DNA of 64,000 nucleotides from an uncultured Planctomycetia bacterium (GTDB taxonomy: Bacteria; Planctomycetota; Planctomycetia; Pirellulales; Thermoguttaceae): contig CAWFIG010000022.1 of NCBI GenBank assembly GCA_963815695.1, positions 96,648-160,647 on the forward strand, read 5' to 3'. The first letter of the stretch is position 1. Every line of letters begins with the position of its first letter. The notes below the pieces were generated by a model that had not been told where the DNA came from, searched no databases, and saw only the letters and a program-made list of their open reading frames with translations. A program made the translations under genes and the position numbers. This document shows, piece by piece, positions 9,677-52,645 of this stretch.

Positions 9677-9918
9677 GATAATCGAGCTCCGCCGCCGTTG
9701 CTGTACTTCGTTTCGATCGCGACTTGTATCCGAATCTGGAAATTCGGGCAAGAGTCTTTTCCAACAGGCGCTTCAAGGAAAGTTGCCCATTCATCGCAAG
9801 CCACCGATCTTATGTCATTCTGGACCTCCGGCAATTACTGTACCCTCCGTCATCCTCTATCCCTCATCTCTCATCTCTTCTGGCCTCAAAACGCGTTTCC
9901 CGCTATACTTCGTCCATC

Positions 9919-10605
9919 ATGCAAGTCTACGATATCGTGATGTTGGTCGTCTTGGTGGGCGCCACGCTGTTCGGCGTTTGGAAGGGGATGGCTTGGCAAG
10001 TGGCCTCGTTGGCGTCGGTGGTCGTTAGCGCCGCGGTGGCGGTTCACAGCAGCGCCGACGATCGCCCCCTACTTCCCCGGCCAGGAGCCGTGGAACCGCT
10101 TTCTGGCGATGGCGGTGCTCTACGTGGTCACGGCCGGGGCAATTTGGATCCTGTTCCGTCTGGTGTCGAACCTTATCGACCGCGTGAAGCTCAAGGAGTT
10201 CGACCGGCAACTCGGCGCGACGTTCGGACTGGCCAAGGGGGTTCTGTACTGCGTCGTGATCACGTTCTTCGCGGTCACGTTGTCGGAGCCTTCCCGGCAG
10301 GTGGTGCTGGCGTCGCGTTCCGGCGATCTGATCGCCCGAGGCATTCGCAACGCCAATCCGATCTTGCCCGAGGACGTCCGCAAGTATCTCGGCAAGTACA
10401 TCGACCAGTTGGACAAGGGGCTGCACACGCCGCCGCAGAACCCTGCCCCCAAAGCCCCGCTCCACAAACCGAGGAGTCGAGCCCAAATCCGCTACCCCCC
10501 CAAAAGGACACTGCAAAGGAGACGCCGAAGCCTACGGGCGCTGCCGGCCCTGCCGAGGGCAAGGGGGCGGTGGAAAAGCTCAAAAAACTGCTCGGCGAAA
10601 AATAG
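9919..10605 (+). CDS. CvpA-family membrane protein, apparent frameshifts
   Basis: MQVYDIVMLVVLVGATLFGVWKGMAWQVASLASVV (frame of 9724..10605) plus ORF 10109..10675 (AVLYVVTAGAIWILFRLVSNLIDRVKLKEFDRQLGATFGLAKGVLYCVVITFF). Low-complexity Pro/Lys tail ends at 10605. Confidence 0.65.
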   Translation: MQVYDIVMLVVLVGATLFGVWKGMAWQVASLASVVVSAAVAVHSSADDRPLLPRPGAVEPLSGDGGALRGHGRGNLDPVPSGVEPYRPREAQGVRPATRRDVRTGQGGSVLRRDHVLRGHVVGAFPAGGAGVAFRRSDRPRHSQRQSDLARGRPQVSRQVHRPVGQGAAHAAAEPCPQSPAPQTEESSPNPLPPQKDTAKETPKPTGAAGPAEGKGAVEKLKKLLGEK

Positions 10606-10907
10606 CCGCTCGCCGATCGGCGTTCGATTTGGCGTTGTCGTCGCGGGCTTTGTCCGGTGTGGCGGGGGCGGGTGAGGGGGGCGGAGTTTCGCTGCGGCAT
10701 CGGGCCCGCTCGCCGGGCATCCAAATCGGCCGACTGAGGGCGATTATGGGCGAGGCAGTGGAAACGATGGTTTGAGAGACTGGCTGTTTTCCCGGCGAAT
10801 TTGCGGCTCCCGACCGAACATAAGAAACATTATCGGACGTTGCAGGCCCGCTCCTTGTGCCGCCTCTTGGGCGAAAAAAGTGCGGCCGCCGTAGCGTCGC
10901 CATTCAA

Positions 10908-10969
10908 CACTAACCCGAATGCAAGCGAGGGACGGTAACACATTCCCTCGCTTGCGCTTCGGGTTAGTG
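10908..10969. repeat. long imperfect palindrome (25/26-nt arms, 11-nt loop)
   Basis: cactaacccgaatgcaagcgaggga (10908-10932) pairs with tccctcgcttgcgcttcgggttagtg (10944-10969). Lies between the CvpA-like stop and the LRR gene stop. Candidate bidirectional terminator or REP-type element. Confidence 0.8.
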
Positions 10970-11068
10970 CAACCACTGAGTGAATGCGTCAATCTTGGCC
11001 GCGAGCGGTATATATCGCCAGCGGTCTTTTCTGATGGCAGTGCGACGTCGCCAGCGGTTTGGCAACCT

Positions 11069-11885
11069 CAATGATCGACTGTCAGCCCCGGAATCGCCTT
11101 CTTCAGCCGATCGATTCCCGCCGCCGTGACTTTCGTGTGGTCGACGGTCAACCGGTGAAGGTGCTTCAGGGCGGCCAGTTGTTCCAGGCCGGCGTCGCTG
11201 AGCGCCGTGTCGGCAAGCAGAAGCCAATCGAGGTTCGGAGCGGAACCAGTTTCTTCATTCCCGCGTCCGTGACTCGGTCTTGGAAAGGTTCAAGATTTTG
11301 AGGTCGCTCAACCGGGCGATGTCGTCCAGGCCCGCGTCCGACAGTTCGTGTCCGGAGAGGTGCAACGTCTGGAGATTCGTAAGCGGGCGAAGGTGGACCA
11401 GTCCCGCATCGGTGATCGGGGTGTTCGTCAGAACCAGAGAGGTCAGCACCGACAGGCCGGAGAAGATACTTCAACTGGTCGTCGGTGATATTGGAGTTTT
11501 CGGCGATGACGGTGCCGATTCGATAGAGCGGGCCGTGAGCTTGAGCGTTTCCTCGTCGACGTGCGAACCCTTGTAGTTGATGCTCGTGACTCGTTTGTCC
11601 GGCTTGTCGGGATCGGGCCTTTCGGAGATCACCAGATACTTGCCTTTGCCGTTCTTGTCCTTGAAGGCTCGAAGCTTCTCGGCGGCCTCGCGTTCGGCGG
11701 TTTTGTCGCCTGACGGCTCGGCAATGTCCCGCTGTTCATGCTGGCCTTTGTCGTTCGGGTGAGAAGAGGGCCTTCTTGATCCCCTTCCAATTCGAGAAGA
11801 CGACGAAAGCCAGCACTGCCAGCAAGCAGACTTCCACCAGCAGCGTCAACAGCCGACGATGCGCCTTGTGGTGGCGGATGGGCAT
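11069..11885 (-). CDS. membrane-anchored leucine-rich-repeat protein, apparent frameshifts
   Basis: N-terminus [30 protein letters not shown] by manual translation from 11885. LRR units in ORF 11255..11449 (LTNTPITDAGLVHLRPLTNLQTLHLSGHELSDAGLDDIARLSDLKILNLS). C-terminus ...LKKAIPGLTVDH-stop at 11069. Confidence 0.6.
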
Positions 11886-12971
11886 GGCTGGACTGTCGCT
11901 CGATTGGCGTTCTGATTGTCACTCACTTTGTGATCTCCTGCTCGCGATCGGGTGCAATCAGTGGGGAAACGGTGGAAGAAGACCTGAAGGTTGTTCATTC
12001 GGCCGACCGCCTTCGAGAAGACTCCCATGCGGCGGAACTTCCGATAGCGCTCGTCCAAGAGCAGATCGGTCGGCTTGCCGAGCAACTCGCGGAGCGCGCC
12101 GCGAAGATAGAGCTTCAAGCGGCTGGCCATCAAGTGGTGGTTGCGATGGGCGCCGCCGAGCGGCTCGTGAGATGATCGTGTCGATCAAGCCCAACCGGCT
12201 GAGGTCTTTCGAGGTCATTTTCAGGGCCTCGGCCGCCTGTTCCTTGAAGGTGTGGCTCTTCCAAAGGATGCCGGCGCAGCCTTCGGGACTGATGACCGAG
12301 TAATAGGCGTGTTCGAGCATGGCCACGCGGTCGCCGACGCCGATCCCCAGCGCGCCGCCCGAGCCGCCTTCGCCGATCACCACGCAGATGACGGGCGTGG
12401 GCAGCCGCGACATCTCGAACATCGACTCGGCGATGACCTGGGCCTGGCCGCGCTCTTCGGCGCCGATGCCCGGATAGGCCCCGCCGGTGTCGATCAGGCA
12501 GATGACCGGCATGTGGAACTTGGCGGCCAGCCGCATCTTGGCCATCGCCTTGCGGTAGCCCTCGGGATGGGCATAGCCGTAGTTGCAGAGGTTGCGTTCC
12601 TTGAGATTCTTTCCCTTTTTGATGCCCGACGACCAGCACCCGGTAGGCGTCGAGTTTTGCCCAGCCCGTGCGGATCGCCCGGTCGTCGCCGAACGTCTTG
12701 TCGCCGTGCAACTCGACGAACTCCTCGAACACCAGTTCGAGGTAGTCGGTCGTCATCGGCCGGTCGGGGTGCCGGGCGACCTCGACCGTCTCCCACGGCT
12801 TCAGATTGCGCGTAGATCCGCTTCGTTCACCTCGACCAGTTCGCGGCGCAGCAGGCGGATTTCGTTGCGAACCTCCGGCGTCGAGTCGCCCTTGGCCTCG
12901 AGCTTCTCCAGCCGGGCTTCGAGCTCGTAGATCGGACGTTCAAACGATAGTCGGTGTTCGCTTCCTGCCAT
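11846..12971 (-). CDS. accA: acetyl-CoA carboxylase carboxyltransferase alpha subunit, apparent frameshifts; 3' end uncertain
   Basis: Stitched from 12801..13016 ([25 protein letters not shown] from 12971), 12130..12756 ([34 protein letters not shown]), 11958..12545 ([34 protein letters not shown]...[10 protein letters not shown]) and 11846..12133. One junction is an extra A in the run gggaaag near 12605. Confidence 0.85.
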
Positions 12972-13051
12972 GATATTCCTGTAGACGCAAATCATCCGTT
13001 CGATCCCACTACCCACTACCGCACTGACCGGCAGCTACCGCACTACGCCGA

Positions 13052-13957
13052 CTACGCCACCTTATGCCTTGTCGGTTCCGAAGCGGGGTTTTTGCACGAA
13101 TTGACGGGTGGGGTGATCTTAAAAACCCGCATCATACGAAATTCCCTCAGAAAATCATCCACCGATTTGGGGCGTGCGTCACGTTTTTTGGAGAGCGACC
13201 GCCGAATCAACTGGGAAAACTCCGGCGTGACGTTGTAGTTGAGCGCCTCCAACGAGGGGGGCGTCGACTCGCAGATGTTTGTTCAGCAGGTCGTTCGTGC
13301 TTGTCCCCGTAAATGGGGGTTTGCCGGAAAGTATCTCGTGGATGCGTGCAGGCAAAGCTGTACAGGTCGGCCCGACCGTCCAGGGCCTGGCCGCGGATCT
13401 GCTCGGGCGAAATGTAGCTCTTGGTCCCCTGAATCAGCCGTGCCTTGGGGGTGAACCAGTGCGTCAGCCCGTGCCGGCAACGCTTGGCCAGGGCGAAATC
13501 GATCAACTTCACGTCGCCGTCGTCGGTCACCAGGAAGTTGTCGGGCTTGATATCGCGGTGAATCCAGCCCATTCCGTGGAGATAGCACAGGGCCAGGCAG
13601 CCTTGGTCGATGATCTTCGGCATCAACGGGGCGATCTTCTCCGCCCCTTGCAGGAACCGCTGCTTCATGTTCGGCGAGGAGAACCACTCCATCGCGAAGT
13701 ACGGCTGGCGAGGCGTCCCAAGGCGAGGGATAGATCTCGATGATGTTCGGATGCTGCAGTCCTTGCCCGACGGTGTATTCCCATCGCAGATAGTGGACTT
13801 GCTCGCGGTCCTTCGCGTCCTTTTCCAGCAGCGTCTTCACGCCCACGATCCGCTGGTTGGCGTCGTCATAAGCCTGCCAGATCAGGCTGGCGTGGCCGGT
13901 ATGAACGACGTTCAGCAGGCGATAGGGCCCGAGATAGCCGGGAACAGGTTTCGCCAC
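13052..13957 (-). CDS. serine/threonine protein kinase, apparent frameshifts
   Basis: Stitched from 13283..13957 (GPYRLLNVVHTGHASLIWQAYD...VGVKTL), 13207..13692 (LHGMGWIHRDIKPDNFLVTDDGDVKLIDFALAK...GTKSYISPEQ) and 13052..13252. Confidence 0.8.
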
Positions 13958-16935: not shown

Positions 16936-17802
16936 TCACCGACTGGGGCTCTGTATTGGACGCTCGATCAGACAGAGCCCTTGCGGCGGGGCGGTCGGAC
17001 CGCCGAGCCGGCGATCCGCGGCACGGAGGACTTCGCCGGGCCAACTTTCCGGCCGGCTGCCGCGGCCGACTTCCACCAGCGTGCCGACGATCGCCCGGAC
17101 CATGTTGTAGAGGAACCCGTCGGCCTCGATCTCGATGGTGATGAAGTCGTTGGCGATCGGGATCGCATGTTCCCCGCGACCGCAGTCGCGGGGCGTTAAC
17201 GTCGTTCTCCATCCCTGACCCCTGACCCTCCCCCTGACCCCTGTTCCGCCCCCTCCCCTGCCCTGCCCCGCTCGACGCGAGAGTTCGAAAACCGTTCGCA
17301 CGCTGGTCTTTCGTTCGGCGCCGCTGCTCTCGAAGCTGCTGAAGTCGTGCGTGCCCAACAGCGCCGCGGCGGCGCGGCGCATGGCGTCGGCGTCGAGCCG
17401 GCCGTAAACGTAATGCCAGACGAAATGCCGGCGGAAGACGTCGCGGACCGGCCCGTCATGGATCAGGTAGCGATAGCGCTTGCGAACGGCGTCGGCGATC
17501 GGATGGAATCCATCGGGCGCTTCGGCCACGTCGAGCACGGCGACGTCGTGCGGCAGATTGGCGTTGATGGCCCGCAGCAGCACCTCGGGCGGCAGCGCCG
17601 AATCGGTGCGAAATCCGACCACCTGGCCCAGGGCATGAACGCCGGCGTCGGTCCGGCCGCTGGCCAGAATGCGGACGTGCTGGCCGGTCACTTTGGCGAT
17701 GGCGTTTTCCAGCGTTCCTGCACGGTCGGCCTGCTCCGGCTGGAACTGCCAGCCGGCGTAGGCCGTGCCGTCGTAGGCGATGGTGAGCTTGAGGGTTCGC
17801 AA
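16936..17802 (-). CDS. truA: tRNA pseudouridine(38-40) synthase with a repeat-derived Gly/Arg-rich insertion
   Basis: Intact 288-aa ORF, TTG start. Contains KLTIAYDGTAYAGWQ, SGRTDAGVHALGQV and EADGFLYNMVRAIVGTL. Extra segment AGQGRGGGGTGVRGRVRGQGWRTT is encoded by 17213-17268. Confidence 0.9.
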   Translation of the reverse strand: MRTLKLTIAYDGTAYAGWQFQPEQADRAGTLENAIAKVTGQHVRILASGRTDAGVHALGQVVGFRTDSALPPEVLLRAINANLPHDVAVLDVAEAPDGFHPIADAVRKRYRYLIHDGPVRDVFRRHFVWHYVYGRLDADAMRRAAAALLGTHDFSSFESSGAERKTSVRTVFELSRRAGQGRGGGGTGVRGRVRGQGWRTTLTPRDCGRGEHAIPIANDFITIEIEADGFLYNMVRAIVGTLVEVGRGSRPESWPGEVLRAADRRLGGPTAPPQGLCLIERPIQSPSR

Positions 17803-26381: not shown

Positions 26382-26459
26382 CGGAGACGCTACCGCGGGA
26401 CGTTGGCCCCCGGCTATTCTTCAATCAACAATCTGTAATCAACAATCTATCCTCCTGCC

Positions 26460-27678: not shown

Positions 27679-27783
27679 GGGGAGGCGATAGTAGGTAGTG
27701 GGTCAGTGGATCAGACGCCGCTTGCGGTTTCGCAGTGCTGATCGTATGCCGCCGAGCCGATTTCTGTCAAAGGGGGGGCCTGA

Positions 27784-30881: not shown

Positions 30882-30936
30882 TGAAGATTGGACGACTGCG
30901 GATTGCAGATTGCAGATTGCAGGGCGAAAAGCGGGA

Positions 30937-33263
30937 ATGGCAGGTTCGGGATTTGCGATTTCCAATCTTCCATTGCTGGTCTTCTGTTTGTCCTTTTCGC
31001 CGCGGTTTTCCCCGCGGCCGCTTCCGCACAGGAGATCAAGCCGCCGAAGATCGTCGGCGTGCGGGTTGGAATCGCCGATCGCTACAAGGCGGGATTGTGG
31101 ACGCAGGTGGAAGTGACGCTGTTGGGCGGGAGCGAAATGCTTACCGGCGAGGTGTCGGTGATTGTGCCCGACGGCGACGGCGTGCCCGGCTGCGTCTCGA
31201 CGCCGCCGAGCAGGCCGTGCCAGGTCTTGCCGGGCCAGACGACGCCCGTTCGGCTGGTCACCCGCTTCGGCCGCGTCGACGGCGACCTGCAGGCCGAGTT
31301 CCGCGTCGGCGGCGCGTCTGGTCGCCGAGCCGAACGTTCGAGGCCGGCGTGCAGGCCGACGGCGAGCACTTCGCCGAGGCGATCGAACTGCAGGAAGCTC
31401 GATCGTTTCGCGTGGGCGACTCGTCGCTGGACGTGGCAGGGCGAGGCGCAAGCCCGACGGTCTCGATCCGGAAGCCAAGCCGGTCGTCGCTCAGCGTGAC
31501 GACATCGAGCGGCTGCCGAGCCAGTGGTGCGCCTACGAAGGCGTCGATGCGGTCATCCTTTCGACCAGCCGGCCGGAAATCTACCGCAAGCTGGCCGCCA
31601 ACAATGCACGGGTGCAGGCGCTCGACCAATGGGTGCGCATGGGGGGCGGTTGGTGTTGTGCGTCGGTTCGCAGGGCGACGAAATCCTGGCCGAGGGCTCG
31701 CCGCTGGGCGAGTTCGCCCCCGGCCGGCTCGAGAAGATCGTTACACTGCGCCAAACCGGGGCGATCGAGACCTACTGCGGAGGCCGCTCGTCGATCGCCC
31801 AGACGGCCGGACGGCAAGCCGAAGCTGCAGGTCTCGCGGCTGGCCGACGTCCAGGGCGTCGTCGAAGCCGACGAGCGCGGCGCTGCCGCTGGTGATTCGC
31901 ACCGCGCGGGCTTCGGCCAGGTGATCTTCGTCGCCGTCGACCTCGACCAATCGCCGCTGAACAAATGGCCGGACCGGCCGCTGCTGGTGGCCCAGCTGCT
32001 CGACCTGCCGACCGTGCGCAGCGACGAGTCGGCAGCGGAGAACGCGGCCATGATGCACTACGGCTACAGCGATCTGGCCGGCCAGTTGCGCAGCGGCCTC
32101 GGACCGATTCACGCGGCGTCCAGCTCGTGCCGTTCTGGCTCGTGGCGGGCCTGATCGTCGGATACATCCTCCTGATCGGGCCGGGCGACTATTTCTTCCT
32201 TCGCAAAGTCGTCGGCCGCATGGAATGGACGTGGCTGACGTTTCCGCTGATCGTCGTGCTGGTGTGCGTCGGCCGCCTACGTTCTGGCCTATCGGCTCAA
32301 AGGCAATCAGCTTCGCGTGAACCAGATCGATCTGGTCGACGTGGACGCGGCGTCGGGCGAGATGCGCGGCGACGACCTGGATGAACGTTTTCAGCCCGCG
32401 GATGGAATCGTTCGATTTCACCGTCGAGCCGCGCGAGGCCGACGGCCAGCCGTCGCCGAACGCCCGCGTGTGGATGGCCTGGCTGGGCTTGCCGGGCGGC
32501 GGGCTGGGCGGCATGAATCCGCACGCCAACGGCCCGTGCTCTGGACCGAGCAATTCCGCTACGCGACCGAACTCGACGCGTTGTACGGCGTGCCGATCCA
32601 GGTCTGGTCGACCAAGAGCCTCACCGCCCGCTGGGAGCGCCCAGCCGCGGCTTGTCCCGCGGCCGATTTGACCGAGAGCCGATCGCCTTCTTACCGGCTC
32701 GATCACCAACACGCTTCCCTTTCCGCTCGCGCGACTGCGTATTGCTGCACGGCGGATCGGCCTATGAGCTCGGCACGCTCTCGCCCGGCGAGTCGGTTCG
32801 CTTGGGTCCGACGGCCAAGCGGAGTGGAACTGAAGACGTTCTTGACCGCGAAAGGTCATCGGCGAAGGCGACGACGCTGTCGCAGCAGGCCACGCCCTAT
32901 GACCAGTCGAGCATGAATCTCGGCTACATCCTGCGGGCGATGATGTTTTACGAGGCGGCCGGCGGGCGCCGCTACACCGGCCTGTTGGAACAGCTACCAG
33001 GAGTTCGTCGATCTGAGCGACTTGCTGAAGACCGGCCGGGCGATCCTGTTCGCCGAGGCGCCCATCGCCCGCCGCCGAAGGACACCAAGGCGCCGACGCT
33101 GCTGCGGCAGACGGCCAAGCCGCTGGCCGGCCCGCAAGATCGGCACGAAACGATCTATCGCTTCATTTTTCCCGTAAAAACCGGACAATTGGCCGAGCGA
33201 GTAACAACGCGCGGCATGAACCGTCCCGCGCCATACTGCCCACTGCCCACTACGCCATCATGA
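30937..33263 (+). CDS. large hypothetical secreted/membrane protein, many apparent frameshifts; both ends approximate
   Basis: Signal-like LLFVLFAAVFPAAASAQE. Fragments 30888..31499, 31162..32154 (AYEGVDAVILSTSRPEIYRKLAANNARVQALDQWVRMGG), 31965..32384 (TM helices LVPFWLVAGLIVGYILLIGPGDYFFLRKVVGRMEWTWLTFPLIVVLV), 32317..32916 and 32652..33263. No family recognised. Confidence 0.45.
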
Positions 33264-34187: not shown

Positions 34188-34195
34188 TGAAGCGG

Positions 34196-34673: not shown

Positions 34674-34707
34674 CGGTTAATCCCTAATCCCTAATCCCTA
34701 ATCCCTC

Positions 34708-34708
<1 letters not shown>
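34674..34708. repeat. heptamer tandem array (TCCCTAA)x3 plus 2 degenerate units
   Basis: cggttaa tccctaa tccctaa tccctaa tccctct. The last unit overlaps the pgi stop codon (34708-34710). Confidence 0.9.
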
Positions 34709-36120
<1,412 letters not shown>

Positions 36121-36148
36121 GGGAGTGGTCAGTGGTTAGGGGTTAGGA
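36121..36148. repeat. heptamer tandem array (GGGAGTG GTCAGTG GTTAGGG GTTAGGA)
   Basis: Begins at the nucleotide after the pgi start codon. The last two units are the inverted form of the TCCCTAA array at the other end of pgi. Confidence 0.85.
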
Positions 36149-36431
36149 TCAGTTTAGCCGCCGCGTCTCGCGAGCGAGCCAGGGTCTCGCTGTTGACGGG
36201 TGGCACGTCACACTGCCGTCCCGACATGCAGGAAACGCTCGAATCGCCAGTGCAACTGCATCCCAACGTGGTCGAGAATCGTTCAGCTCGCCGCGTCCAC
36301 ACGGCGAACGCTGCGAAGGACGTTTCCTTCGCGGAATCGCGACTGCTCGCCTTCCCCCTTCCGCCTTCCCCCTTCTTTTGTTACCGTGAAACATTCTATC
36401 GACCCGAGCAGGAAAATAAAGGAGCCCCATC

Positions 36432-40621: not shown

Positions 40622-41851
40622 CTATGGTACGAGTCGGGCGTCGAGCCAGTCGGCGTGGTCGAGGACGTCGGCGCGGTCGGCGTAATCGACTAGTAGTTCT
40701 AGCTTCTTCGCGCCGCGAACATCGACGGAAACCGGCAGCGGGGCGTCGCCGCCGCGGACGATTGGACTGGTGAAACGTTCCTGGCCATCGACCAGGACGC
40801 GGAAGATCACGCTGCCGCGGCCTGGCGGTCGAGTCGTCGATGCCGACCTTGGCCTCGAAACGATGGAAACGACTTGGAAATTTCGGAGACTTGGGGATCC
40901 GCAGCCTCTGACCCCTGACCCCTGACCCCTGACCCCTCAGCTGCCCTTACCCCCTGCCCCTCTCCCACCGGCGGAAGAGGGGAGATTGTGTAGACCAGCC
41001 GGGCGGCGCTGTGAACGCCGAGGCCTTTCAGATAAAGCTGGCCGCTCGCAGCGGAGCATGCCGCCGGTGACGTTGCGGTCGCGGCGATACGGCCACGGCA
41101 GGCGAGGAACGGCGTTTGGCGATACTCGGCCGGCTTGAGGTCGGAGAGATAGACGGCGCGGCCGCCAGCGGTTGAAGGAAGACGAGCGGCGAGCGCTTGG
41201 CCCGTAAGCGTTTGGCCGGCGGCCGTGATTTTCAGCGAATCGCCTTCGAGCAACAATTCCGTGGCCAACAGCCGGCTGCCGTCGCTGAAGCCTGCCCAGA
41301 CTCGCAGCGAGTCGGGCTTGACGGCCAGTTTTCGCCGCAAGGCGGGGTTGAAGAGGATGGCCGTGATGCGGTCGGTCTTGACTTCGGACCGGCGCCGGCG
41401 TCGGTCTTCAACGTGACGGCGTCGTCGGCGATGCCCTCGAAGAGGCCGGCAAGCTCGTCGCCGTTGTCCAACAGCAGGCGGTCGGAGTCTCCGGCGGCGT
41501 TGGAGAGGCGATCGAGCAATAAGTCGTGCTGCTGGCGGTCGGACAGGCGCGAAGGACGATGCCGGCCAGCACGTCGAGCGGCAGCTTCAGCGTTCCGAAC
41601 AGATCGGAATCGGCGGTGAGCCGGTCCTTGTCGGCGGCGACCACCTCGGCCGTCAAGCAGGCTGCCGTCGGCCAAGACGAGCCCCCCTGCCCTGCCCTGC
41701 TCCGGGCATTGTCCCCAGCGGACCAGATCGGCCGCCGGCATGGTGCGTCGCTCGTTGCCGACGGCGAAGGTGAGTTGCCAGTTGGGCGTCGACGGCGACC
41801 AGCTTCGCCGCGGAACGGCTCGCCGTCGACGGGAACGGCCACGGGGCGCAT
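40622..41851 (-). CDS. NPCBM/NEW2-domain protein, frameshifted and carrying a repeat insertion
   Basis: C-terminal ORF 40622..40810 (IFRVLVDGQERFTSPIVRGGDAPLPVSVDVRGAKKLELLVDYADRADVLDHADWLDARLV). Upstream fragments 40807..41340 (YLKGLGVHSAARLVYT), 41232..41906 and 41408..42025. Start MRPVAVPVDGEPF at 41851. Confidence 0.6.
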
Positions 41852-41871: not shown

Positions 41872-41962
41872 AATGCAAAATGCAAATTGAAAAATGCAAA
41901 ATGCAAATCTGAAATTCGAAATTGGAGATTTCAAATTCGAAATTGAAGATTTGAGATTGAAG
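41872..41962. repeat. AT-rich heptamer tandem array, 13 units in perfect register
   Basis: aatgcaa aatgcaa attgaaa aatgcaa aatgcaa atctgaa attcgaa attggag atttcaa attcgaa attgaag atttgag attgaag (91 nt = 13 x 7). Confidence 0.95.
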
Positions 41963-41993: not shown

Positions 41994-42035
41994 GCCCTCT
42001 CCCCTCTCCCCTCTCCCCTCTCCACTACCCTACCG
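41994..42035. repeat. C-rich heptamer array (GCCCTCT, CCCCTCT x3, CCACTAC, CCTACCG)
   Basis: Counted directly. Overlaps the stop codon (42030-42032) of the prenyltransferase-repeat gene. Confidence 0.9.
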
Positions 42036-47319: not shown

Positions 47320-49722
47320 CTATACCATTCCCCGGCGTTTTCTCGTAATATCCATTCGGCGATCAGCAGCAGCAGGAACAGCGCCAGCACCGGCCAGCGG
47401 TTCCAGAGCGGACGCGGCGGCAGCGATTCGATGGGCACCTGGCGGCCGGGCGGCAGGTCGTCGCAGCAAGCGGTCGGCCGTGTCGAACGTGTAGAATCGG
47501 CCGCCGGAGATTTCGGCGGCCGCGCGCATGGCGGCGGCGTCCATGCGCACTTGGGCGAATTCGCCGGGCGGCGGAACCACCGTGAAATCGACCGCCGGCG
47601 ACTGGCCCTGGCAGCGTCGGGCGCGGCGATCCAGGCGTGATAGCTGCCCGTGGCGGGCCGATCGAGCAGGCCCTCGAAGACGCCGCGGGCCGGCGGCCGC
47701 GCGGTGCAGCGACATCCGCCGCGTCTTTCGCCCGGACTGCTCGACCACGACCGTCACGCCGTCGTCTTCGGCCGGGGCCAGCCGCTCGTCGGCGAACCGC
47801 ACCCGCAGCCGCACCGACTCGCCCTGGGCGATATTCGCGGCGGTCGGTCGTGAGAGTGGCCGCGCGGCCGGCGTCGGCCAGCTTCGAGCGGCAGAGGTAG
47901 CGGATCGTCTGAATCCAGTAGCGGGCGAAATAGACGTCGCCGACGCGATAACGCCATCGCCAGGTCTCGTCGGTGGCGTGGAACAGCACCTTGCCGGCGC
48001 CGACGTACTGGAAGCAGGATCACCGGCAAGCGGCGGCCGTCGGGGCCGGTTCGCGTGGGGTGCTCGGCCAGCACGCGCACGCCCGGCTTCAACTCGGGAA
48101 TCTCCAGCAGCCAGTACAGCGGCGGCAGATTCTTCCAGATCCGCTCGCGTCTCCTCCGGCGTGTCGCCCAGTTGCATGGAGGGGCTGGCCAGGCCGAGAT
48201 CGGTCGGCTGCACGACGAAACCTTCGGTGAGCGTGTCCGGTCGGATAGCCGGACGCGATCGACCGAGAACGGCAGCAGCCGGGCCAGCGGCGTGTCGCGG
48301 AAGGCCGCCGGCATGTACGACGGGCCGGCGATCACGACCAACGAGCCCCCCTTGGCCGGCTGATCGACGAAATCGGCCAGGTTCTGCATCGCCGCCGAGT
48401 CCAGCAGAGCCGGATTCACGTCGCCGAGGATCACGACGTCGTAGGCGAAAAGGTCTTCGCGCCGCAACGGGAAGGCCCGCAACGACGAGGCGTCCTGCTC
48501 GGCGTTCTCCGGATCGGCGTCTTGCAGCACGGTGTCGAGCGAGATCGTCTCATCGCGGCGGAGCATGTTCCGCAGGTAGCGGAACTCGAAACTCGGATAA
48601 GCTTGAACCAGCAGCACGCGGATTTTCTCCTTGCGGACCTGGACAGTGCGCGTCTGCCGGTTGTTTTCGGTCAGCGACTCGCCGGCCAGCGGCTGGGCCT
48701 CGACGACGTACTCGAACTGGCCGACCTTGGTGGGCCGGTATTGCAGGCGGACCCGCAACGGCCGGTCGTCGGTCGGGGCGGTCACCTCGGTCTTCGCCAG
48801 GATGTTCTCCGGCGTGGTGGGCTTGTCCTTTTCGCGGAGTACGATCGAGACCTTTCGCCCCTCGAAACCCGCGGCCGTCAGCTTGCACTCGAAATTCACC
48901 ACGTCATCGACGAATACGACGTCATCGACCATCAGATCGGAGAGCTTCAGATCGCGGACGGGCCGATCGCTGCCGAGGCCGACGAAATAGAGCGGCACGC
49001 CACGCCGCTGTGCGTGCTCGGCCGCGTCGGCCAGCGTTGGGCCGTCGGTGTTGATGCCGTCGCTGAGCACGACAACGGCGGCGGGGGCGGCGCCGCGCAA
49101 GTCGTCGAGCGCCGCACGCACACCGGCGCCCAGCCGGGTAGTCTTCCCCTTGGGGGCCAACGATCGCAGCTCCGCGACGATGCCCGGCACGTCCTGGCGC
49201 GGGCTGGCGCGAACCCGTGACAAAATAGACCCGCAACTTGTGACCGGCGGCGATTCCGCGCAAGAGGCTGCCGTCGCGCTCCGCCGTCAACGTTCGCAGA
49301 AGATTCCAGCGGCTCAAATCGGTCGCGCCGAGGCCGCTGCGGCGCAACCGCGCGGCCATCGCCTTGCGAGGCTTCTCGGCGTAGTGATCCACGATCGTCA
49401 TGCTCTGCGAGTCGTCGATCAGCACGGCCGCGTAGGGCAGTCCGGTGCGTTTCAACGAAAGCGTAACCTGGGCGATCATCAGCAGCAGCAGCCCGAGGAG
49501 CGCAAGCCGCAGGGTCGCCAGCATGATCCGATAGCGCCGCGTCGCACGGGTGCCTTCCCGCCAGTAGATCATCGCCACGAAGGCCACCGCCAGCGCCACC
49601 AGCAGCAGTGTCACCCAGGGCGGCCAGGGCCACGCCGAGTCGATCGACCAGACCGTACCCTCTCCGCTCCCGGTGCTGATACCGAGCAGGCGTTCGACCC
49701 AGGGTGGCATGACGTGGTTCAT
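47320..49722 (-). CDS. von Willebrand factor A-domain membrane protein, multiple apparent frameshifts
   Basis: ORF 48922..49722 ([24 protein letters not shown]...[11 protein letters not shown]). ORF 47754..49223 ([33 protein letters not shown]...[11 protein letters not shown]). ORFs 47363..47989 / 47320..48213. C-terminal [21 protein letters not shown]. Confidence 0.7.
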
Positions 49723-49723
49723 A

Positions 49724-49828
49724 GGTTAGTGGGCAGTCGGCAGTCGGCAGTGGGCAGTGGGCAGTCGGCGGTCGGCAGTCGGCAGTCGGCAGTCGGCAGT
49801 GGGTAGTGGATAGTGGGTAGTGGGTAGT
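49724..49828. repeat. heptamer tandem array, 15 units in perfect register (consensus SGGYAGT)
   Basis: ggttagt gggcagt cggcagt cggcagt gggcagt gggcagt cggcggt cggcagt x4 gggtagt ggatagt gggtagt gggtagt (105 nt). Starts 2 nt upstream of the VWA gene ATG (49720-49722). Confidence 0.95.
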
Positions 49829-49865
49829 GCGAAACCGCAAGCGGTTGTGAAGATATGACGAAGTT

Positions 49866-49935
49866 CATCTCTCATCCCTCATCCCTAATCTCTCATCCCT
49901 CATCCCTAATCTCTCATCCCTCATCCTCTCCCCCC
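49866..49935. repeat. C-rich heptamer array, ~10 units with a 21-nt super-period (CATCCCT CATCCCT AATCTCT)
   Basis: Counted directly. Overlaps the 3' end and stop region of the BatA-like gene. Confidence 0.95.
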
Positions 49936-52085
49936 AGTTTCCATCCCAGGAAGACCTCCGCCAGCGCAGGCCGAGCGCCGCGTAGAGGAGATCGACGTGC
50001 AGCCCTTGCTGGCCGTGGGCCGTCCCGACGCCGGCGCCTTTGATGTCTTGCCAGGAAGTCTGATAGACGAACGGAATGTCCGGCCACGTCTGGTTGCGCA
50101 GGTCGTCCGCATCGATTTGTGCAAGGTCGCTCTCCGTCGTATCGACGTTGACCGCGAACGTCTGGCGGCGGTTGGCCGGCGGGCCGAACTGCACCGTGTA
50201 GATGCCGCTTTGCAGCGTGTCGGCGTACGTCAGGGCGAAGCGGTCGCCGGCGGGCTGCAACTGCGCGGGCCGCTTGCGGCCGTCGGGCGATTGCACGCTC
50301 GCCGACGATATGCCGCCCGACGACGTCAAGGCGTCGAACGTATCGCCCACCAGGACGTTTCGCTGTTGGAGTTGCCCGGCCGCACACCAGGCGACGATCT
50401 CCTGCACCAGCGGGACGAAGCTCGGCCAGAGCGGCATGGCGGTCCACGACGGCTCGGCCGAGGTGCCCACCAGCACGACCCGGCCGCGATGGACCGATTG
50501 CTCGATCACCAGCGGATCGCCGTTGCCCAGCGCCAGCACGGTCGTCGCGTGCGACTTCTTCGACGGCGTCAGTTGGTAATGCTTGAAGACCGGCGTGGTC
50601 AGCAGGCTGGTTTGTCCGCGGCCGCGAAACGCCTCGAGAATCGGATGCCGATAGCCGAGCGGATCGAGCCGGAACTGCGGCTGATCGACGACGTTGCCGA
50701 TGCGGGCGGGCAGAATGTGCGGCCCCCCTGCCCTGCCCTCCCCGGCGACGCCCAATTCGCGATTGTAGCGGTCGGCCAACACCTGATCGCCGAGGAAGAA
50801 GACCACGCTGCCGCCGCCCTGCAAATAGGCATCCAGGGCGCGGGCCTCGCTGGCGGTGAACTGGGCGACGTTGCAAAGGAACAGGCAGTCGTAGCGTTGC
50901 CAGGTTGCGCTCCAACAGCGCGCTTCTCCGTGGCCACCTCGGCTTGCAGCGGCGACTGGTCCGACCTTTCGCCTTGCGGCGTCGAGCGCCACGGCGAGAT
51001 AATCGGCGGCGCCGCGGAACGAACCGCCCGAGGGCCGCCCGTCGATGCACAATGCGCGGATCGCTTGCCGCAGCGGTCAGGGCCAGATAGCGGTGATTGT
51101 CGATCTCCAGGGCGTCGCCGGGGGCGCGGGCCTCGATGGCGTGATCGCCGGGCGACATCGAAACGATACGAGAACTCCGACCGCGCCGCTGCCGTCCGGT
51201 GACAATTCCGCTTGGGTCTGCGCGATCCTTCGCCCATCGACGAACAGTTCCACAAGTTGGCGATTGCGCGGCGGCGGCGACCGAAATGCTGCAGACGAAC
51301 GTGCAGGGGCGTGTCGCGGCCGACGGTGACCAGCGAATCGGTCGTGCGGAGATCGGTAATCGCCAGATTCTCCGCCGACGGCTGGCCCAGGTCGATCACG
51401 AACAGGTCGGCCAGTTGGGTCAGTTGGCTGGTCTGTTCGAGGAACTGGGCGCGGGCCGTCTGCGAGAATTGCGGCGCCCATGTGACTGCGCTGCAAGTCG
51501 GTGAGGAAATAGACCTCATGGCGGTCGAGCCGGGGGTTCTCGCCGGCGACCTTCTCGATCAGTTGCCGAATCGCGGGAATCGCCGCCGGCAGATCGGCCA
51601 CGGTATGCGGAAGCTGCAAGTTGTCGATCTCCTCGCAAAATGGCAGCGGACTCCAACGCCGCCGTGCCGACGACCACTCGCGGCGTCGACGACATCAGCA
51701 CCAGCGTGAAGGCGTCGCCCTGCGGGCTGTCGCTGACGATCTGCCGGGCAAGCTCCTTGGCGTGGTCGAATCGCGTCTTGTCGGCCGGCTTGTAGGCCAT
51801 CGAGTAGGAGCCGTCGAAAACCAGCACGCGGTGGACGTGGCTGCCGGGCGTGAAGGCCATGCCCGCCCGCTCGATGTACGGCTCGGCCACCGCCAGCACC
51901 ACTAGCACGACCAGCAGCGTGCGAACGGCCAGCAGCAGCCATTGCTCGAACAGCAGCCGCCGCGTCTGCCGCCGCACGGCCGCCAGCAGATACTCCATCG
52001 CCGCGAACGACATTTCCCGGTACTTCCGCCGGCTCCACAGATGGATCAGGATCGGCGCAGCCGCCGCCCCCAGCCAGCCGAGCAT
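49914..52085 (-). CDS. BatA-type protein (N-terminal double-TM domain), multiple apparent frameshifts
   Basis: ORF 51516..52085: MLGWLGAAAAPILIHLWSRRKYREMSFAAMEYLL...LLLAVRTLLVVLVVLAVAEP...VLVFDGSYSM. Further fragments 51077..51619, 50599..51519 and 49865..51052. Restored end AEVFLGWKLGGEDEG-stop (49914). Confidence 0.7.
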
Positions 52086-52134
52086 CGGCAGGCTGACCCA
52101 TCCAAAGGCGAGAAGTGGCGGCAGCGAAGGGCAT

Positions 52135-52175
52135 GGTGGATAGTGGGTAGTGGGTAGTGGGTGTGGTTAGTGGGT
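52135..52175. repeat. heptamer array (AGTGGGT)x4-5
   Basis: ggtggat agtgggt agtgggt agtgggt gtggtt agtgggt. Lies ~50 nt upstream of the BatA-like start. Confidence 0.9.
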
Positions 52176-52214
52176 CACTCGCACGATTCTTGTGTCTTTG
52201 AGTGAATCGTGGAC

Positions 52215-52572
52215 AGTCCACTCAGCAATCGGCCAACCTTAGCGATTTGTTCAAGCAAGGTGCATGCTGGCGACCGACGTTGGTGACGTATCTTCGAGCC
52301 GCTCGGCTAATTCATGACATCTGCTGTTTCAGCTTCCTTGACCGAGCCCGTGGGCGATGGACAGGAATATGCAGGAAATCGCGTGTCGTGTTGCGTCCCT
52401 GCTCCTCGGCGATATTGGACGGAACGGATCATTGCGGCCAACGTCGAAGCTGAGTCAGTGAGTGAATCGATCTTCTTCTCGCGGAAATCGATCCTTGTTG
52501 TCCGATAGACGATTCCACAAGGTCCATCGCCTTCTGCCAGACGACAAGATCCTGATAGCTTTGAACTGCCAT
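52215..52572 (-). CDS. four-helix-bundle protein (23S rRNA intervening-sequence protein family), apparent frameshifts; 3' end approximate
   Basis: Manual translation from ATG 52572: MAVQSYQDLVVWQKAMDLVESVYRTT..FREKKIDSLT.QLRR. Other frames give SVPSNIAEEQGRNTTRDFLH. Visibly lower GC than the flanks. Confidence 0.55.
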
Positions 52573-52610
52573 GTTCAACTCTACGATCGAAACAAGACCA
52601 GATTCTCATT

Positions 52611-52645
52611 CTACCCTACTACCCACTACTTCCACTATCCTCTCG
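52611..52645. repeat. heptamer array, inverted form of the 52135 array (ACTACCC-type units)
   Basis: ctaccct actaccc actactt ccactat cc. Overlaps the DUF58 stop codon (52635-52637). Confidence 0.8.

What the first reader, a model, noticed from the sequence alone, without database searches (positions are those of the whole stretch)
9851..52645. STRR-like heptanucleotide tandem arrays placed at gene boundaries
At least 16 arrays have a strict 7-nt period.
- Family A (SGGYAGT / AGTGGGT and complement): 13005-13058 (degenerate), 27690-27710, 33235-33255, 36121-36134, 42022-42035, 49724-49828, 52135-52175, 52611-52645.
- Family B (CCCCTGA): 17213-17247 and 40905-40939.
- Family C (TCCCTAA / CATCCCT / AATCTCT): 9851-9878, 34674-34708, 36135-36148, 49866-49935.
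- Family D (CCCCTCT): 41994-42021.
- AT-rich family E (AATGCAA / ATTCGAA / GATTGCA / CAATCAA): 26422-26456, 30901-30921, 30950-30977, 41872-41962.
Almost all touch a start or stop codon. One array starts 2 nt from the ATG at 49722, another 1 nt from the pgi ATG. Arrays overlap the stops at 34708, 42030 and 52635, and one ends 4 nt before the TTG at 26460. A period of 7 cannot be a codon repeat. The only well-described bacterial analogue I know is the STRR heptamer repeats of heterocystous cyanobacteria. I am not aware of a description for a planctomycete-like genome.
Basis: partly seen in the sequence, partly recalled or inferred. Interest (0 to 1): 0.8.

Follow-up and report, generated by a model that had tools for sequence, protein, structure and literature searches.

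The report
Polar heptanucleotide repeat arrays between planctomycete genes
The spaces between genes in this soil planctomycete (Thermoguttaceae-like) genome are packed with real 7-base tandem repeats, a kind of array already known from cyanobacteria and Xanthomonas, and they are strictly oriented: purine/G-rich just after stop codons, pyrimidine/C-rich just before start codons.

Summary
- TRF detects period 7 in 13 of the 19 listed intervals. A stricter scan finds 9 arrays, against 0.03 expected by chance. Periods 6 and 8-15 give 0-1.
- One listed array (17213-17269) lies inside the truA ORF.
- The window is a frameshift-ridden Thermoguttaceae/Pirellulales MAG. The same arrays occur in short-read MAGs of relatives, so they are not an assembly artefact.
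- In 825 kb of related planctomycete loci there are 113 period-7 arrays, against 12 (period 6) and 8 (period 8). Outgroups have 4 in 429 kb.
- 77 of 88 arrays are intergenic, at a median 7 nt from a gene end.
- New here is a strict polarity. Arrays after stop codons are G/purine-rich on the sense strand (29:5). Arrays before start codons are C/pyrimidine-rich (25:2), p = 5e-10. Equivalently, each spacer reads R-array then Y-array (33:1).
- Neighbouring arrays with the same unit are inverted (16:3). They form long stems that place a stop codon next to the following start codon.
- Arrays appear where relatives have ATGA-overlapping genes, and copy number differs by whole units.

Verdict: a new lineage for a known kind of element (STRR, heptanucleotide LSSR, Xanthomonas GGGAATC, TAACTGA repeats). 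A role in translation is inferred, not shown.

The parts
9850..9878 (+). Weak array, TCATCTC/CATCCCT, ~4 copies, C-rich on the + strand. It sits in a non-coding dip upstream of a CvpA-like gene on the + strand.
   Evidence: TRF score 35. Coding-potential profile. Pfam Colicin_V hit on 10109-10675, matching from profile position 65.
13005..13025 (+). Short array, CCCACTA x2.9. It lies between a Ser/Thr kinase fragment and accA, both on the - strand. The rest of the claimed 13005-13058 is not periodic.
   Evidence: TRF score 33. Period-7 identity 0.34 over the full claimed span. Pfam.
17213..17269 (-). CCCTGAC-type repeat of mixed 7/12/19-nt period. It lies in frame inside truA and encodes a G/R-rich insertion. 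This is a coding exception.
   Evidence: TRF. Translation of 16936-17802(-). PseudoU_synth_1 matches on both sides. The same coding frame runs on both sides.
26422..26456 (+). Degenerate G-poor array (CAATCAA) that ends 4 nt before the start of the HAD/S6PP-type hydrolase at 26460.
   Evidence: TRF score 31, 68% matches. Homolog residue 1 aligns at 26460.
27690..27710 (-). Three degenerate units, C-rich on the sense (-) strand, 12 nt upstream of the tRNA-binding-domain gene that starts at 27678.
   Evidence: Not detected by TRF.
30885..30977 (+). AT-rich arrays (AGATTGC x5.3, then degenerate GATTTSC units). They fill the ~100-nt spacer between the mazG stop (~30881) and the next gene (~30987). 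In relative L078 these two genes overlap.
   Evidence: TRF score 46. Homology mapping. L078 gene calls 12440-14623 and 14620-14946. An array at the same junction in L082.
33235..33255 (+). ACTGCCC x2.4-3, C-rich on the sense strand, ending 4 nt before the ABC-ATPase ATG at 33260.
   Evidence: TRF score 34. Homolog residue 3 aligns at 33267.
34674..34708 (-). (AGGGATT)4-5 on the pgi sense strand, overlapping the pgi stop. G-rich, after a stop.
   Evidence: TRF score 58, 100% matches. The pgi homolog ends at 34711.
36121..36148 (-). Four degenerate units, C-rich on the pgi sense strand (CCTAACC / CACTGAC), abutting the pgi ATG at 36120.
   Evidence: pgi residue 1 aligns at 36120. Orthologous leaders are all G-poor and heptamer-like.
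36348..36375 (+). CCTTCCC/CCTTCCG array, x3.7 at period 7 and 100% identical at period 14. It lies 57 nt upstream of the phosphoglycerate-mutase start at 36432. Its sequence is conserved in distant relatives.
   Evidence: TRF. An identical 26-mer occurs in L080, and the element is conserved in L078, L081 and L082.
40905..40939 (-). (TCAGGGG)4-5 on the sense strand, in a coding-potential dip between coding segments of the - strand (NPCBM-domain gene region).
   Evidence: TRF score 60, 100% matches. Coding-potential profile.
41872..41962 (-). About 13 AT-rich units, pyrimidine-rich on the sense strand (TTGCATT / TTCGAAT). They end ~20 nt upstream of the putative ATG (~41849) of the NPCBM-domain gene.
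   Evidence: TRF scores 58/79/75, with a 21-nt super-period. Sequence. Coding-potential profile.
41994..42035 (-). (AGAGGGG)4 on the sense strand, directly after the stop at 42030 of the upstream - strand gene. The 42022-42035 tail is not periodic. An orthologous (GAGAGGG)n array occupies the same junction in L081.
   Evidence: TRF score 58, 100% matches. L081 865-892, 0 nt after the stop by independent gene calls.
49724..49829 (-). 15 units of ACTRCCS, C-rich on the sense strand, ending 1-2 nt before the ATG at 49722. The orthologous array in L041 has about 10 units in the same phase.
   Evidence: TRF scores 113-125. Alignment to L041 and other relatives.
49832..49847 (-). Small GC hairpin (AACCG-CUUG-CGGUU) between the two arrays. 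L041 carries a compensatory A-U to G-C change. The same hairpin sequence lies between arrays in L020.
   Evidence: read directly from the sequences.
49865..49935 (-). About 9-10 units of AGGGATG/AGAGATT, G-rich on the sense strand. The first units encode the last codons and the TGA stop (49914) of the upstream BatA-family gene. The 21-nt super-period is perfect.
   Evidence: TRF scores 89/120. C-terminal alignment with relatives.
52135..52175 (-). About 6 units of ACCCACT/ACTATCC on the sense strand, ending at 'CCACC' directly before the batA-like ATG (52134). This is the 3' arm of an inverted pair.
   Evidence: TRF score 59.. BatA domain.
52180..52572 (-). Frameshifted gene for a four-helix-bundle '23S rRNA intervening-sequence protein' (PF05635), bracketed by the inverted arrays.
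   Evidence: tblastn E 3e-14. Intact orthologues in L004, L013, L017, L019, L022 and L039. Pfam E 4e-40 on the L019 copy.
52611..52645 (-). Degenerate GGATAGT/GGGTAGT units on the sense strand. They contain the DUF58 stop (TAG, ~52635). This is the 5' arm that pairs with 52135-52175.
   Evidence: Period-7 identity only 0.46. In the RNA fold the two arms pair, z = -3.9. Clean orthologues are shown.

Best explanation
What they are (shown): heptanucleotide microsatellites of the STRR / long-SSR class.

Origin (inferred from behaviour):
- They arise and change by slippage in whole 7-nt units.
- They build the intergenic spacers of a Thermoguttaceae-type planctomycete lineage, often at junctions where relatives have overlapping ATGA stop/start codons.

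Orientation (shown): their orientation is not free.
- The array next to a stop codon is purine/G-rich on the mRNA strand, and it often supplies the stop codon itself.
- The array next to a start codon is pyrimidine/C-rich and almost free of G.
- As a result every spacer reads R-array, then Y-array.

Function (inferred):
- This lineage rarely uses Shine-Dalgarno sites. The Y arrays probably provide the G-poor, structure-free leader that such initiation needs.
- Where the R and Y arrays are complementary, they zip into a long stem whose base holds the upstream stop codon and the downstream start codon.
- A terminating ribosome would open that base and expose the start codon. Translational coupling would then survive across the spacer, even with a cassette gene sitting in the loop.
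For: Excess of period 7:
- Window: 9 arrays against 0.03 expected.
- Relatives: 113 period-7 arrays against 12 (period 6) and 8 (period 8) in 825 kb. Outgroups have 4 in 429 kb.
- TRF run independently: 86 arrays of period 7, against at most 8 for any other period.

Not an artefact:
- The arrays are present in MEGAHIT/SPAdes MAGs such as L013, L015, L019 and L037.

Position:
- 77 of 88 arrays are intergenic although 84% of the DNA is coding. The median distance to a gene end is 7 nt.

Polarity:
- After a stop, G>C in 29 arrays and C>G in 5. Before a start, C>G in 25 and G>C in 2. Fisher p = 4.6e-10.
- Independent gene calls agree.
- Without any gene calls, adjacent arrays at most 150 nt apart read R then Y in 33 cases and Y then R in 1. 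This includes 22:1 in unrelated metagenome contigs.

Translation context:
- Only 18% of starts have an SD-like motif. Positions -5 to -1 are 40% C and 20% G.
- Leaders with arrays fold at -3.8 kcal/mol, other leaders at -12.8 and mid-gene windows at -17.7.
- Orthologous pgi leaders are all G-poor, whether or not an array is detectable.

Turnover:
- The BatA junction is an ATGA overlap in six relatives (L011, L013, L015, L016, L037, L040). In the window and L041 it is a ~200-nt R-hairpin-Y module.
- The Y array has 15 units in the window and 10 in L041, in the same phase.
- An array is present upstream of moxR in only about 13 of 42 loci, and the units differ.

Stems:
- Neighbouring arrays with the same unit are inverted in 16 cases and direct in 3.
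- Predicted long-range stems have z-scores of -3.9 to -5.7. The stop and start codons lie at or next to the base of the stem.
Against: - No expression, ribosome or RNA-structure data exist. Every functional step is inference.
- The sense-strand rule is mathematically the same as a DNA rule that ignores gene orientation (R then Y on either strand). Geometry therefore cannot tell an RNA-level cause from a DNA-level one.
- About a third of R/Y pairs are not complementary. The window's largest module (49715-49945) folds worse than shuffled sequence, z = +4, so stem-mediated coupling cannot be general.
- The same R-Y pairs occur between convergent and divergent genes, where coupling is irrelevant.
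- Nothing here explains why the period is 7. The polymerase-slippage idea comes from the literature and was not tested.
- The polarity statistics for gene ends come mostly from one operon neighbourhood and from my own gene caller. Four loci with independent gene calls, and the gene-free test, support them.
Confidence: 0.6

Rival explanations
1. Neutral by-products. The arrays are slippage-prone microsatellites with no function. Purifying selection only removes harmful orientations: G-rich sequence or structure next to SD-less start codons, and stop-free arrays running out of gene ends.
For: - Turnover at orthologous sites is high: arrays in about 13 of 42 moxR leaders, with different units.
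- In L041 the R array has decayed while the window's copy is intact.
- Array density varies widely between relatives, from 0 to 7.6 per 10 kb.
- Leaders are G-poor even without arrays.
- 24 of 36 after-stop arrays carry stop triplets.
Against: - It does not explain why neighbouring arrays so often share the same unit in inverted orientation: 19 of 49 neighbouring pairs share a unit, 16 of them inverted.
- It does not explain why the arms sit within ~10 nt of the stop and start codons.
- Some arrays are conserved in sequence across genomes whose pgi proteins are ~60% identical (36348-36375).
Confidence: 0.25
2. DNA-level structural elements. G-quadruplex, i-motif, H-DNA or cruciform-forming repeats act on transcription, supercoiling or replication, as proposed for the GGGAATC repeats of Xanthomonas. 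On this view the R-then-Y order is a property of the duplex, not of the mRNA.
For: - 54 of 122 arrays have a run of at least 3 G or C in each unit, against 27.5% expected. Window arrays at 34678, 40908, 41995 and 49865 are canonical G3N4 motifs.
- The polarity rule is symmetric on the two strands and holds for convergent and divergent gene pairs.
- The inverted pairs could extrude as cruciforms.
- G4 formation and effects on expression are reported for the analogous Xanthomonas/Nostoc repeats (PMC4692102).
- G-patterns are reported as over-represented in the planctomycete Isosphaera (PMC4060949).
Against: - More than half of the arrays have no G-run, including the AT-rich families.
- Arrays abut translation signals at single-nucleotide distances, which a duplex-level role does not require.
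- No promoter-like or terminator-like consensus coincides with them.
Confidence: 0.2
3. Binding sites for a protein that reads single-stranded RNA in about 7-nt steps, such as cold-shock-domain proteins or ribosomal protein S1, or CsrA for the ARGGAUG units. The arrays would then be post-transcriptional regulatory platforms.
For: - The strict 7-nt register, the absence of secondary structure and the position at the ribosome landing site all fit.
- The same candidates were proposed for TAACTGA repeats (PMC4679880).
- The units AAGGATG and AGGGATG recur in many genomes.
Against: - Dozens of unrelated units, from AT-rich to GC-rich, argue against one sequence-specific reader.
- No candidate protein was tested. 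The resemblance to the CsrA site comes from memory only.
Confidence: 0.1
4. Footprints or terminal inverted repeats of a mobile cassette or MITE-like element. The R and Y arms would be the ends of an inserted element, for example the four-helix-bundle gene cassette.
For: - Inverted arms bracket an inserted PF05635 gene in the window and five relatives (L004, L017, L019, L022, L039), and a different small ORF in L026. The insert is absent from L041, L005 and L038.
- Modules appear at junctions that are overlaps in relatives.
Against: - Many arrays are single, and the arms are often non-complementary.
- Units differ between orthologous sites. In L013 the arms flank an ordinary DUF58 gene.
- No transposase or target-site duplication was seen.
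- The cassette sits at one conserved site, which looks like a single ancestral insertion rather than mobility.
Confidence: 0.05
5. Assembly or basecalling artefact of a noisy long-read MAG.
For: The window has roughly one frameshift per 400-500 bp.
Against: - The same kinds of array, at the same junctions, are present in independent short-read assemblies and in at least 120 metagenome contigs.
- The arrays keep an exact 7-nt phase between the window and L041.
Confidence: 0.01

Closest known systems
G-rich heptamer repeats of Xanthomonas (GGGAATC) and Nostoc (GGGGAYT), Rehm et al. 2015 (PMC4692102)
   Same: - 7-nt units, many with one G-run per unit. The units GGGGATT and AGGGATT occur here too.
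- About 90% intergenic and close to the end of the upstream ORF.
- Frequent convergent (inverted) pairs.
- Length and sequence vary between close relatives.
   Different: - A different phylum.
- Dozens of unit families here, including AT-rich ones, rather than one dominant motif.
- Arrays here also abut start codons in the C-rich orientation.
- That paper gives a 30-35% split between strands without separating the stop side from the start side.
STRR (short tandemly repeated repetitive) sequences of heterocystous cyanobacteria
   Same: - Tandem heptanucleotides, several unit families, dispersed and intergenic.
- The STRR1 unit CCCCAGT occurs as an 8.6-copy array in relative L022.
   Different: - The host is a planctomycete, not a cyanobacterium.
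- Most units differ from STRR1-3.
- As far as I know (from memory), no stop/start polarity has been described for STRR.
TAACTGA direct repeats of marine Beggiatoaceae, cyanobacteria and Bacteroidetes, MacGregor 2015 (PMC4679880)
   Same: - Heptamer arrays in a fixed 'forward' orientation that end 1 to a few nt before start codons lacking an SD site.
- Some overlap upstream stop codons.
- Indels come in 7-nt steps.
- A translational role is suspected.
   Different: - A single unit there, many here.
- No paired purine-rich arrays after stop codons were described.
Long heptanucleotide SSRs in prokaryotic genomes (Mrazek et al. 2007; Huang & Mrazek 2014, PMC4060949)
   Same: A genome-wide statistical excess of 7-nt repeats, mostly non-coding, attributed to polymerase slippage.
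   Different: - That work is a statistical survey.
- The only planctomycete remark I could read concerns over-representation of G-patterns and oligopurine tracts in Isosphaera.
- The 2007 paper itself was not available.
REP/BIME elements of enterobacteria
   Same: Short intergenic repeats inside operons, often in inverted pairs that form stems close to stop codons.
   Different: - REPs are 20-40 nt imperfect palindromes spread by a transposase-like protein.
- They are not tandem microsatellites and have no 7-nt register. This comparison rests on my own knowledge.

Membership tests
Heptanucleotide long SSR / STRR-type arrays | Head-to-tail tandem copies of a 7-nt unit, at least ~3 copies | tested here: met
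   TRF and my own scanner: 13 of 19 listed intervals by TRF and 9 by the strict scan, with up to 15 copies.
Heptanucleotide long SSR / STRR-type arrays | Period 7 is over-represented relative to neighbouring periods and to chance | tested here: met
   Window: 9 arrays against 0.03 expected. Relatives: 113 (period 7) against 12 (period 6) and 8 (period 8). TRF: 86 against at most 8. Only 0.9 Mb was tested, not whole genomes.
Heptanucleotide long SSR / STRR-type arrays | Predominantly non-coding and dispersed at many loci | tested here: met
   77 of 88 arrays are intergenic where 84% of the DNA is coding. The arrays are spread over 43 kb of the window and over two unrelated gene neighbourhoods.
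Heptanucleotide long SSR / STRR-type arrays | Copy number varies in whole units between strains or relatives | tested here: met
   15 units in the window and 10 in L041, in the same phase. Variation within a population was not testable, because no reads were available.
STRR in the strict sense (cyanobacterial) | The host is a heterocystous cyanobacterium and the units are STRR1-3 (CCCCAGT, TTGGTCA, CAACAGT; recalled from memory) | tested here: not met
   The host is Thermoguttaceae/Pirellulales. Only one array in one relative has the STRR1 unit. This is STRR-like, not STRR.
G-quadruplex-forming heptamer repeats (Xanthomonas/Nostoc type) | At least four units, each with a G-run of at least 3 | tested here: inconclusive
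   Met by about 44% of arrays (54 of 122, against 27.5% expected), including window arrays at 34678, 40908, 41995 and 49865. Not met by the AT-rich and GG-only families. Actual G4 folding cannot be tested with these tools.
TAACTGA-type start-proximal repeats | Fixed orientation, ending a few nt upstream of start codons that lack an SD site | tested here: met
   25 of 27 before-start arrays are C-rich on the sense strand and lie at most 25 nt from the start. Only 18% of starts have an SD-like motif. The unit sequence TAACTGA itself is not the unit here.
REP/BIME or MITE | A conserved palindromic unit of 20-40 nt or more, spread by transposition, with target duplications | tested here: not met
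   The units are 7-nt tandem repeats of many sequences. No conserved element body was found.
Known structured RNA families (Rfam) | A match to a curated covariance model | tested here: not met
   No match at gathering score anywhere in the window.
Intrinsic terminators | A GC-rich hairpin followed by a T-run | tested here: not met
   None of the 28 terminator-like sites in 33.1-53.0 kb coincides with an array.

The most novel reading that the evidence does not exclude
The R-array / loop / Y-array module is a general form of 'operon punctuation' found in several phyla. Slippage-grown complementary heptamer arms zip a spacer shut, so that the upstream stop codon and the downstream SD-less start codon sit together at the base of the stem. 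This would keep termination-reinitiation coupling intact while allowing spacers, and even whole cassette genes such as the 23S-IVS-type four-helix-bundle gene, to be carried in the loop. The 7-nt register might be read by a single-strand-binding protein.
Probability: 0.15. Interest if true: 0.75.

Novelty: new member of a known kind. Interest (0 to 1): 0.45.

Why it matters
- It extends heptanucleotide intergenic arrays to Planctomycetota, where I found no published description. In this lineage they are a pervasive building material of intergenic spacers.
- The stop-side/start-side polarity is a simple rule that can be tested on any genome. The start side fits SD-independent initiation. A gene-free form of the rule also held in metagenome contigs spanning 38-72% G+C.
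- If it holds genome-wide, it gives a handle on a question open since 2007: why 7-nt repeats are special in bacteria, and whether they act in translation.
- Practically, the arrays mark gene boundaries in noisy MAGs. They are also likely hotspots of length variation and mis-assembly.

Tried and rejected
- Exact-protein look-ups of window genes failed, so the window's own contig could not be fetched. Its pgi product is on record on a 298,693-bp contig, but no accession is given.
- My first two codon-bias gene callers were too weak. A 4th-order Markov caller trained on the relatives worked on clean loci (76% coding on average, up to 93%) but not on the window (28%). That failure exposed the frameshifts.
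- Rfam found nothing in the window. The terminator and promoter consensus scans found nothing at the arrays.
- A 21-nt super-period is present in three window arrays but is not general. In relatives TRF reports period 14 more often than period 21.
- The mobile-cassette idea for the four-helix-bundle gene was rejected. The gene sits at one conserved site only, and the arrays occur widely without it.
- The CsrA-site resemblance of the ARGGATG units was not pursued. It rests on memory, and most units lack the motif.
- The Mrazek 2007 paper could not be read. It is cited only through PMC4679880 and PMC4692102.

Full report

Tandem Repeats Finder on the window reports period-7 arrays at 13 of the 19 listed intervals. 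The strongest are:
- 49728-49829: 14.6 copies, score 113-125.
- 49865-49926: 8.9 copies, with a perfect 21-nt super-period.
- 41872-41958: about 13 AT-rich units.
- 40908-40937, 41995-42023 and 34678-34706: about 4 perfect copies each.
- 52136-52175 and 30885-30922.

Six intervals are too short or degenerate for TRF: 27690-27710, 30950-30977, 36121-36134, 36135-36148, 42022-42035 and 52611-52645. Only the first three units of 13005-13058 are periodic.

A scanner of my own, applied identically to periods 2-15, found 9 period-7 arrays (359 bp), against 0.03 in 30 order-2 Markov simulations. It found one array of period 6 and none of periods 8-15. The excess of period 7 is therefore real and large. 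"At least 16 strict arrays" is an overstatement.

**2. Where the window comes from, and its quality**

A MoxR ATPase (53303-54613) was used to fetch 77 related loci from species-representative genomes. The window belongs with uncultured Thermoguttaceae/Pirellulales MAGs from soil and peat. L041 is collinear with window 43.0-63.6 kb at 84-91% nucleotide identity.

The window is a poor assembly. A Markov gene caller that labels 76% of the related loci as coding (up to 93%) labels only 28% of the window. Proteins of a clean relative (L078) map onto the window in two or three reading frames per gene, for example pgi, the ABC ATPase, mazG and the hydrolase.

ORF ends in the window are therefore unreliable, so I defined gene ends by homology instead.
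- The hydrolase starts at 26460, and an array ends at 26456.
- The tRNA-binding gene starts at 27678(-).
- The ABC ATPase ATG is at 33260.
- pgi runs from 36120 to 34708(-), with arrays abutting both ends.
- The ATG at 49722 and the DUF58 stop inside the array near 52635 are confirmed by alignment to relatives.

There is one exception. 17213-17269 lies in frame inside truA and encodes a G/R-rich insertion.

**3. Not an artefact, and a trait of the lineage**
- In 46 planctomycete loci (825 kb) the scanner finds 113 period-7 arrays (3756 bp). It finds 12 of period 6, 8 of period 8 and none of period 9.
- In 31 outgroup loci (429 kb) it finds 4 period-7 arrays.
- TRF run independently gives 86 arrays of period 7, plus 10 of periods 14, 21 or 42. 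No other period exceeds 8. Outgroups have 2.
- Many array-rich loci come from MEGAHIT or SPAdes assemblies (L013, L015, L019, L037), which excludes a long-read artefact.
- Several planctomycete loci have none, for example a Blastopirellula MAG (L031), so the trait is clade-limited.
- A limited set of units recurs across genomes: AGGGTTC, AGGGATT, GCAATTT, AGGGATG, GGATAGT, AAGGATG and GGGGATT. One array has the cyanobacterial STRR1 unit CCCCAGT.
The 80 loci I analysed (522 kb, 38-72% G+C) held 129 further period-7 arrays, against 15 of period 6 and 6 of period 8. The phenomenon is probably wider than this lineage.

**4. Anatomy**

Position. In the 31 best-called loci (84% coding), 77 of 88 arrays are intergenic. 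Their median distance to the nearest gene end is 7 nt.

Polarity at gene ends. Arrays within 25 nt after a stop codon are G/purine-rich on the sense strand: 29 have G>C and 5 have C>G, and the mean purine content is 67%. Of these 36 arrays, 24 contain stop triplets, and the first unit often supplies the gene's own stop. Arrays within 25 nt before a start codon are C/pyrimidine-rich: 25 against 2, with 32% purine. Fisher p = 4.6e-10.

Independent support. Four pgi-region loci with gene calls from the public collection follow the same rule. This includes a convergent gene pair in which each gene has its own G-rich array on its own sense strand. The window follows the rule at nearly every homology-defined boundary.

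An equivalent form. The rule is mathematically identical to one that ignores gene orientation: on either strand, read 5' to 3', a spacer has the R array first and the Y array second. Tested without any gene calls, adjacent arrays at most 150 nt apart read R then Y 33 times and Y then R once. Of these, 22:1 come from the unrelated metagenome contigs. Across gene-sized gaps the order reverses.

Pairing. Neighbouring arrays that share a unit are inverted in 16 cases and direct in 3.

**5. Evolutionary behaviour**

Arrays are born at tight junctions.
- The junction between the BatA-family gene and the next gene is an ATGA stop/start overlap in L011, L013, L015, L016, L037 and L040.
- In the window and L041 the same junction is a ~200-nt module: a G-rich array that encodes the last codons and the stop, a small CUUG hairpin with a compensatory change, and a C-rich array ending 1-2 nt before the ATG.
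- The C-rich array has 15 units in the window and 10 in L041, in the same phase. The G-rich array is intact in the window and decayed in L041.
- The mazG junction behaves in the same way.

Turnover is high. Only about 13 of 42 moxR leaders carry an array, and the units differ. Orthologous pgi leaders are all G-poor and heptamer-like, whether or not an array is detectable.

A few arrays are conserved.
- The CCTTCCC element at 36348-36375 is an identical 26-mer in L080, whose pgi protein (P0053) is about 60% identical to the window's pgi. It lies in a conserved promoter-like block.
- The AGAGGGG array after the stop at 42030 has an orthologue in L081.

**6. How it may work**

Shown:
- Only 18% of starts have an SD-like motif, and positions -5 to -1 are 40% C and 20% G.
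- Leaders containing arrays are almost structure-free: -3.8 kcal/mol, against -12.8 for other leaders and -17.7 for mid-gene windows.
- The window's largest module folds worse than shuffled sequence, z = +4.
- Where the arms are complementary they form long stems. This holds for the window at 52125-52660(-) (z = -3.9), L019 (z = -5.7), L030 (z = -5.1) and L026 (z = -4.7). The upstream stop and the downstream start lie at or next to the base of each stem.
- In the window and five relatives (L004, L017, L019, L022, L039), such a stem brackets a gene for a PF05635 '23S rRNA intervening-sequence' four-helix-bundle protein, inserted between DUF58 and batA.

Inferred:
- The arrays grow by slippage.
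- Selection at the transcript level keeps the G-poor orientation at SD-less starts and the stop-rich purine orientation at gene ends.
- Complementary pairs preserve translational coupling, because a terminating ribosome would melt the base of the stem.

Limits:
- About a third of the pairs are not complementary.
- The same modules lie between convergent and divergent genes.
- The symmetry of the rule allows a DNA-level reading (G4, H-DNA or cruciform). 44% of arrays have a G- or C-run of at least 3 per unit, against 27.5% expected.
- No known RNA family and no terminator consensus matches the arrays.

**7. Comparison with what is known**

Heptanucleotide repeats are reported as the commonest long SSR class in many bacteria, with polymerase slippage proposed as the cause (Mrazek 2007, as summarised in PMC4679880 and PMC4692102).

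The Xanthomonas GGGAATC and Nostoc GGGGAYT arrays are 89-93% intergenic and lie on average 28 nt from the upstream ORF. They form 70-75 convergent pairs per genome and vary between close relatives (PMC4692102).

TAACTGA arrays end 1 nt before SD-less start codons and overlap upstream stops, and S1, cold-shock proteins and CsrA have been proposed as readers (PMC4679880).

Over-representation of G-patterns was noted for the planctomycete Isosphaera (PMC4060949). Two full-text searches found no paper that links heptamer repeats with Planctomycetota.

The finding is therefore a new lineage for a known kind of element. The additions are the explicit stop-side/start-side polarity, the birth of arrays at overlapping junctions, and the stem-bracketed cassette.

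**8. Verdict**

Novelty: a new member of a known kind. Interest is moderate (0.45).

Noticed in passing
window, whole; e.g. 33260-34207, 34708-36120, 26460-27291, 30560-30881: The window has roughly one frameshift per 400-500 bp. Homologous proteins map in 2-3 frames per gene, and only 28% of the window is callable as coding. It looks like an unpolished long-read MAG, so ORF-based annotation of it is unreliable.
   Followed up: yes
window 52180-52572 (-); L004, L013, L017, L019, L022, L039: A gene for a PF05635 '23S rRNA intervening-sequence' four-helix-bundle (bAvd-like) protein is inserted between DUF58 and batA. In the window and in L004, L017, L019, L022 and L039 it is bracketed by inverted heptamer arrays that fold into a long stem, an architecture reminiscent of rRNA intervening sequences. 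In L013 only the upstream array passed my scan. The insert is absent from the closest relatives L041, L005 and L038.
   Followed up: partly
window 59233-59341: A 44-nt tandem repeat (2.5 copies, 90% identity). Each copy carries a GC-rich hairpin (GTCCCGCC-TGCC-GGGCGGGAC), and the last copy is inverted. The whole is flanked by the inverted pair CACCCAGTAG/CTACTGGGTG. It lies in the divergent region upstream of a BamB/PQQ-like gene.
   Followed up: no
window 38966-39125: A 68-nt tandem repeat, 2.4 copies at 79% identity, in the region of the SBP_bac_10 paralogues.
   Followed up: no
window 36348-36431 (+); L078, L080, L081, L082: A ~105-nt block upstream of the phosphoglycerate-mutase gene is highly conserved across genomes whose pgi proteins are only ~60% identical. 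It contains the CCTTCCC/CCTTCCG element, a promoter-like TTGTTA...TTCTAT and a canonical AAGGAG site. This gene is one of the few here with an obvious SD site.
   Followed up: partly
window 49832-49847; L020 ~3720-3740; L041 ~14410-14425: A small hairpin, AACCG-CAAG/CUUG-CGGUU, recurs between R and Y arrays at unrelated junctions. L041 shows a compensatory change.
   Followed up: partly
window 17213-17269 (-): truA carries an in-frame G/R-rich insertion built from CCCTGAC-like repeats. Heptamer-like repeats also sit inside called NPCBM-domain ORFs in L081 (1967-1988) and L082 (1824-1852). Heptamer arrays may occasionally be absorbed into coding linkers.
   Followed up: partly
L075 (CAWEBD010000183.1): This contig is labelled 'uncultured Bacteroidetes', yet it carries a planctomycete-like moxR (67% identity) and five heptamer arrays of the same unit families. 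It may be misbinned.
   Followed up: no
The 80 loci I analysed span 38-72% G+C, are rich in further period-7 arrays and keep the same R-then-Y order. The taxa involved were not identified.
   Followed up: partly
L022 4493-4552: An 8.6-copy array of TCCCCAG, the same unit as cyanobacterial STRR1 (CCCCAGT), in a Thermoguttaceae MAG.
   Followed up: no
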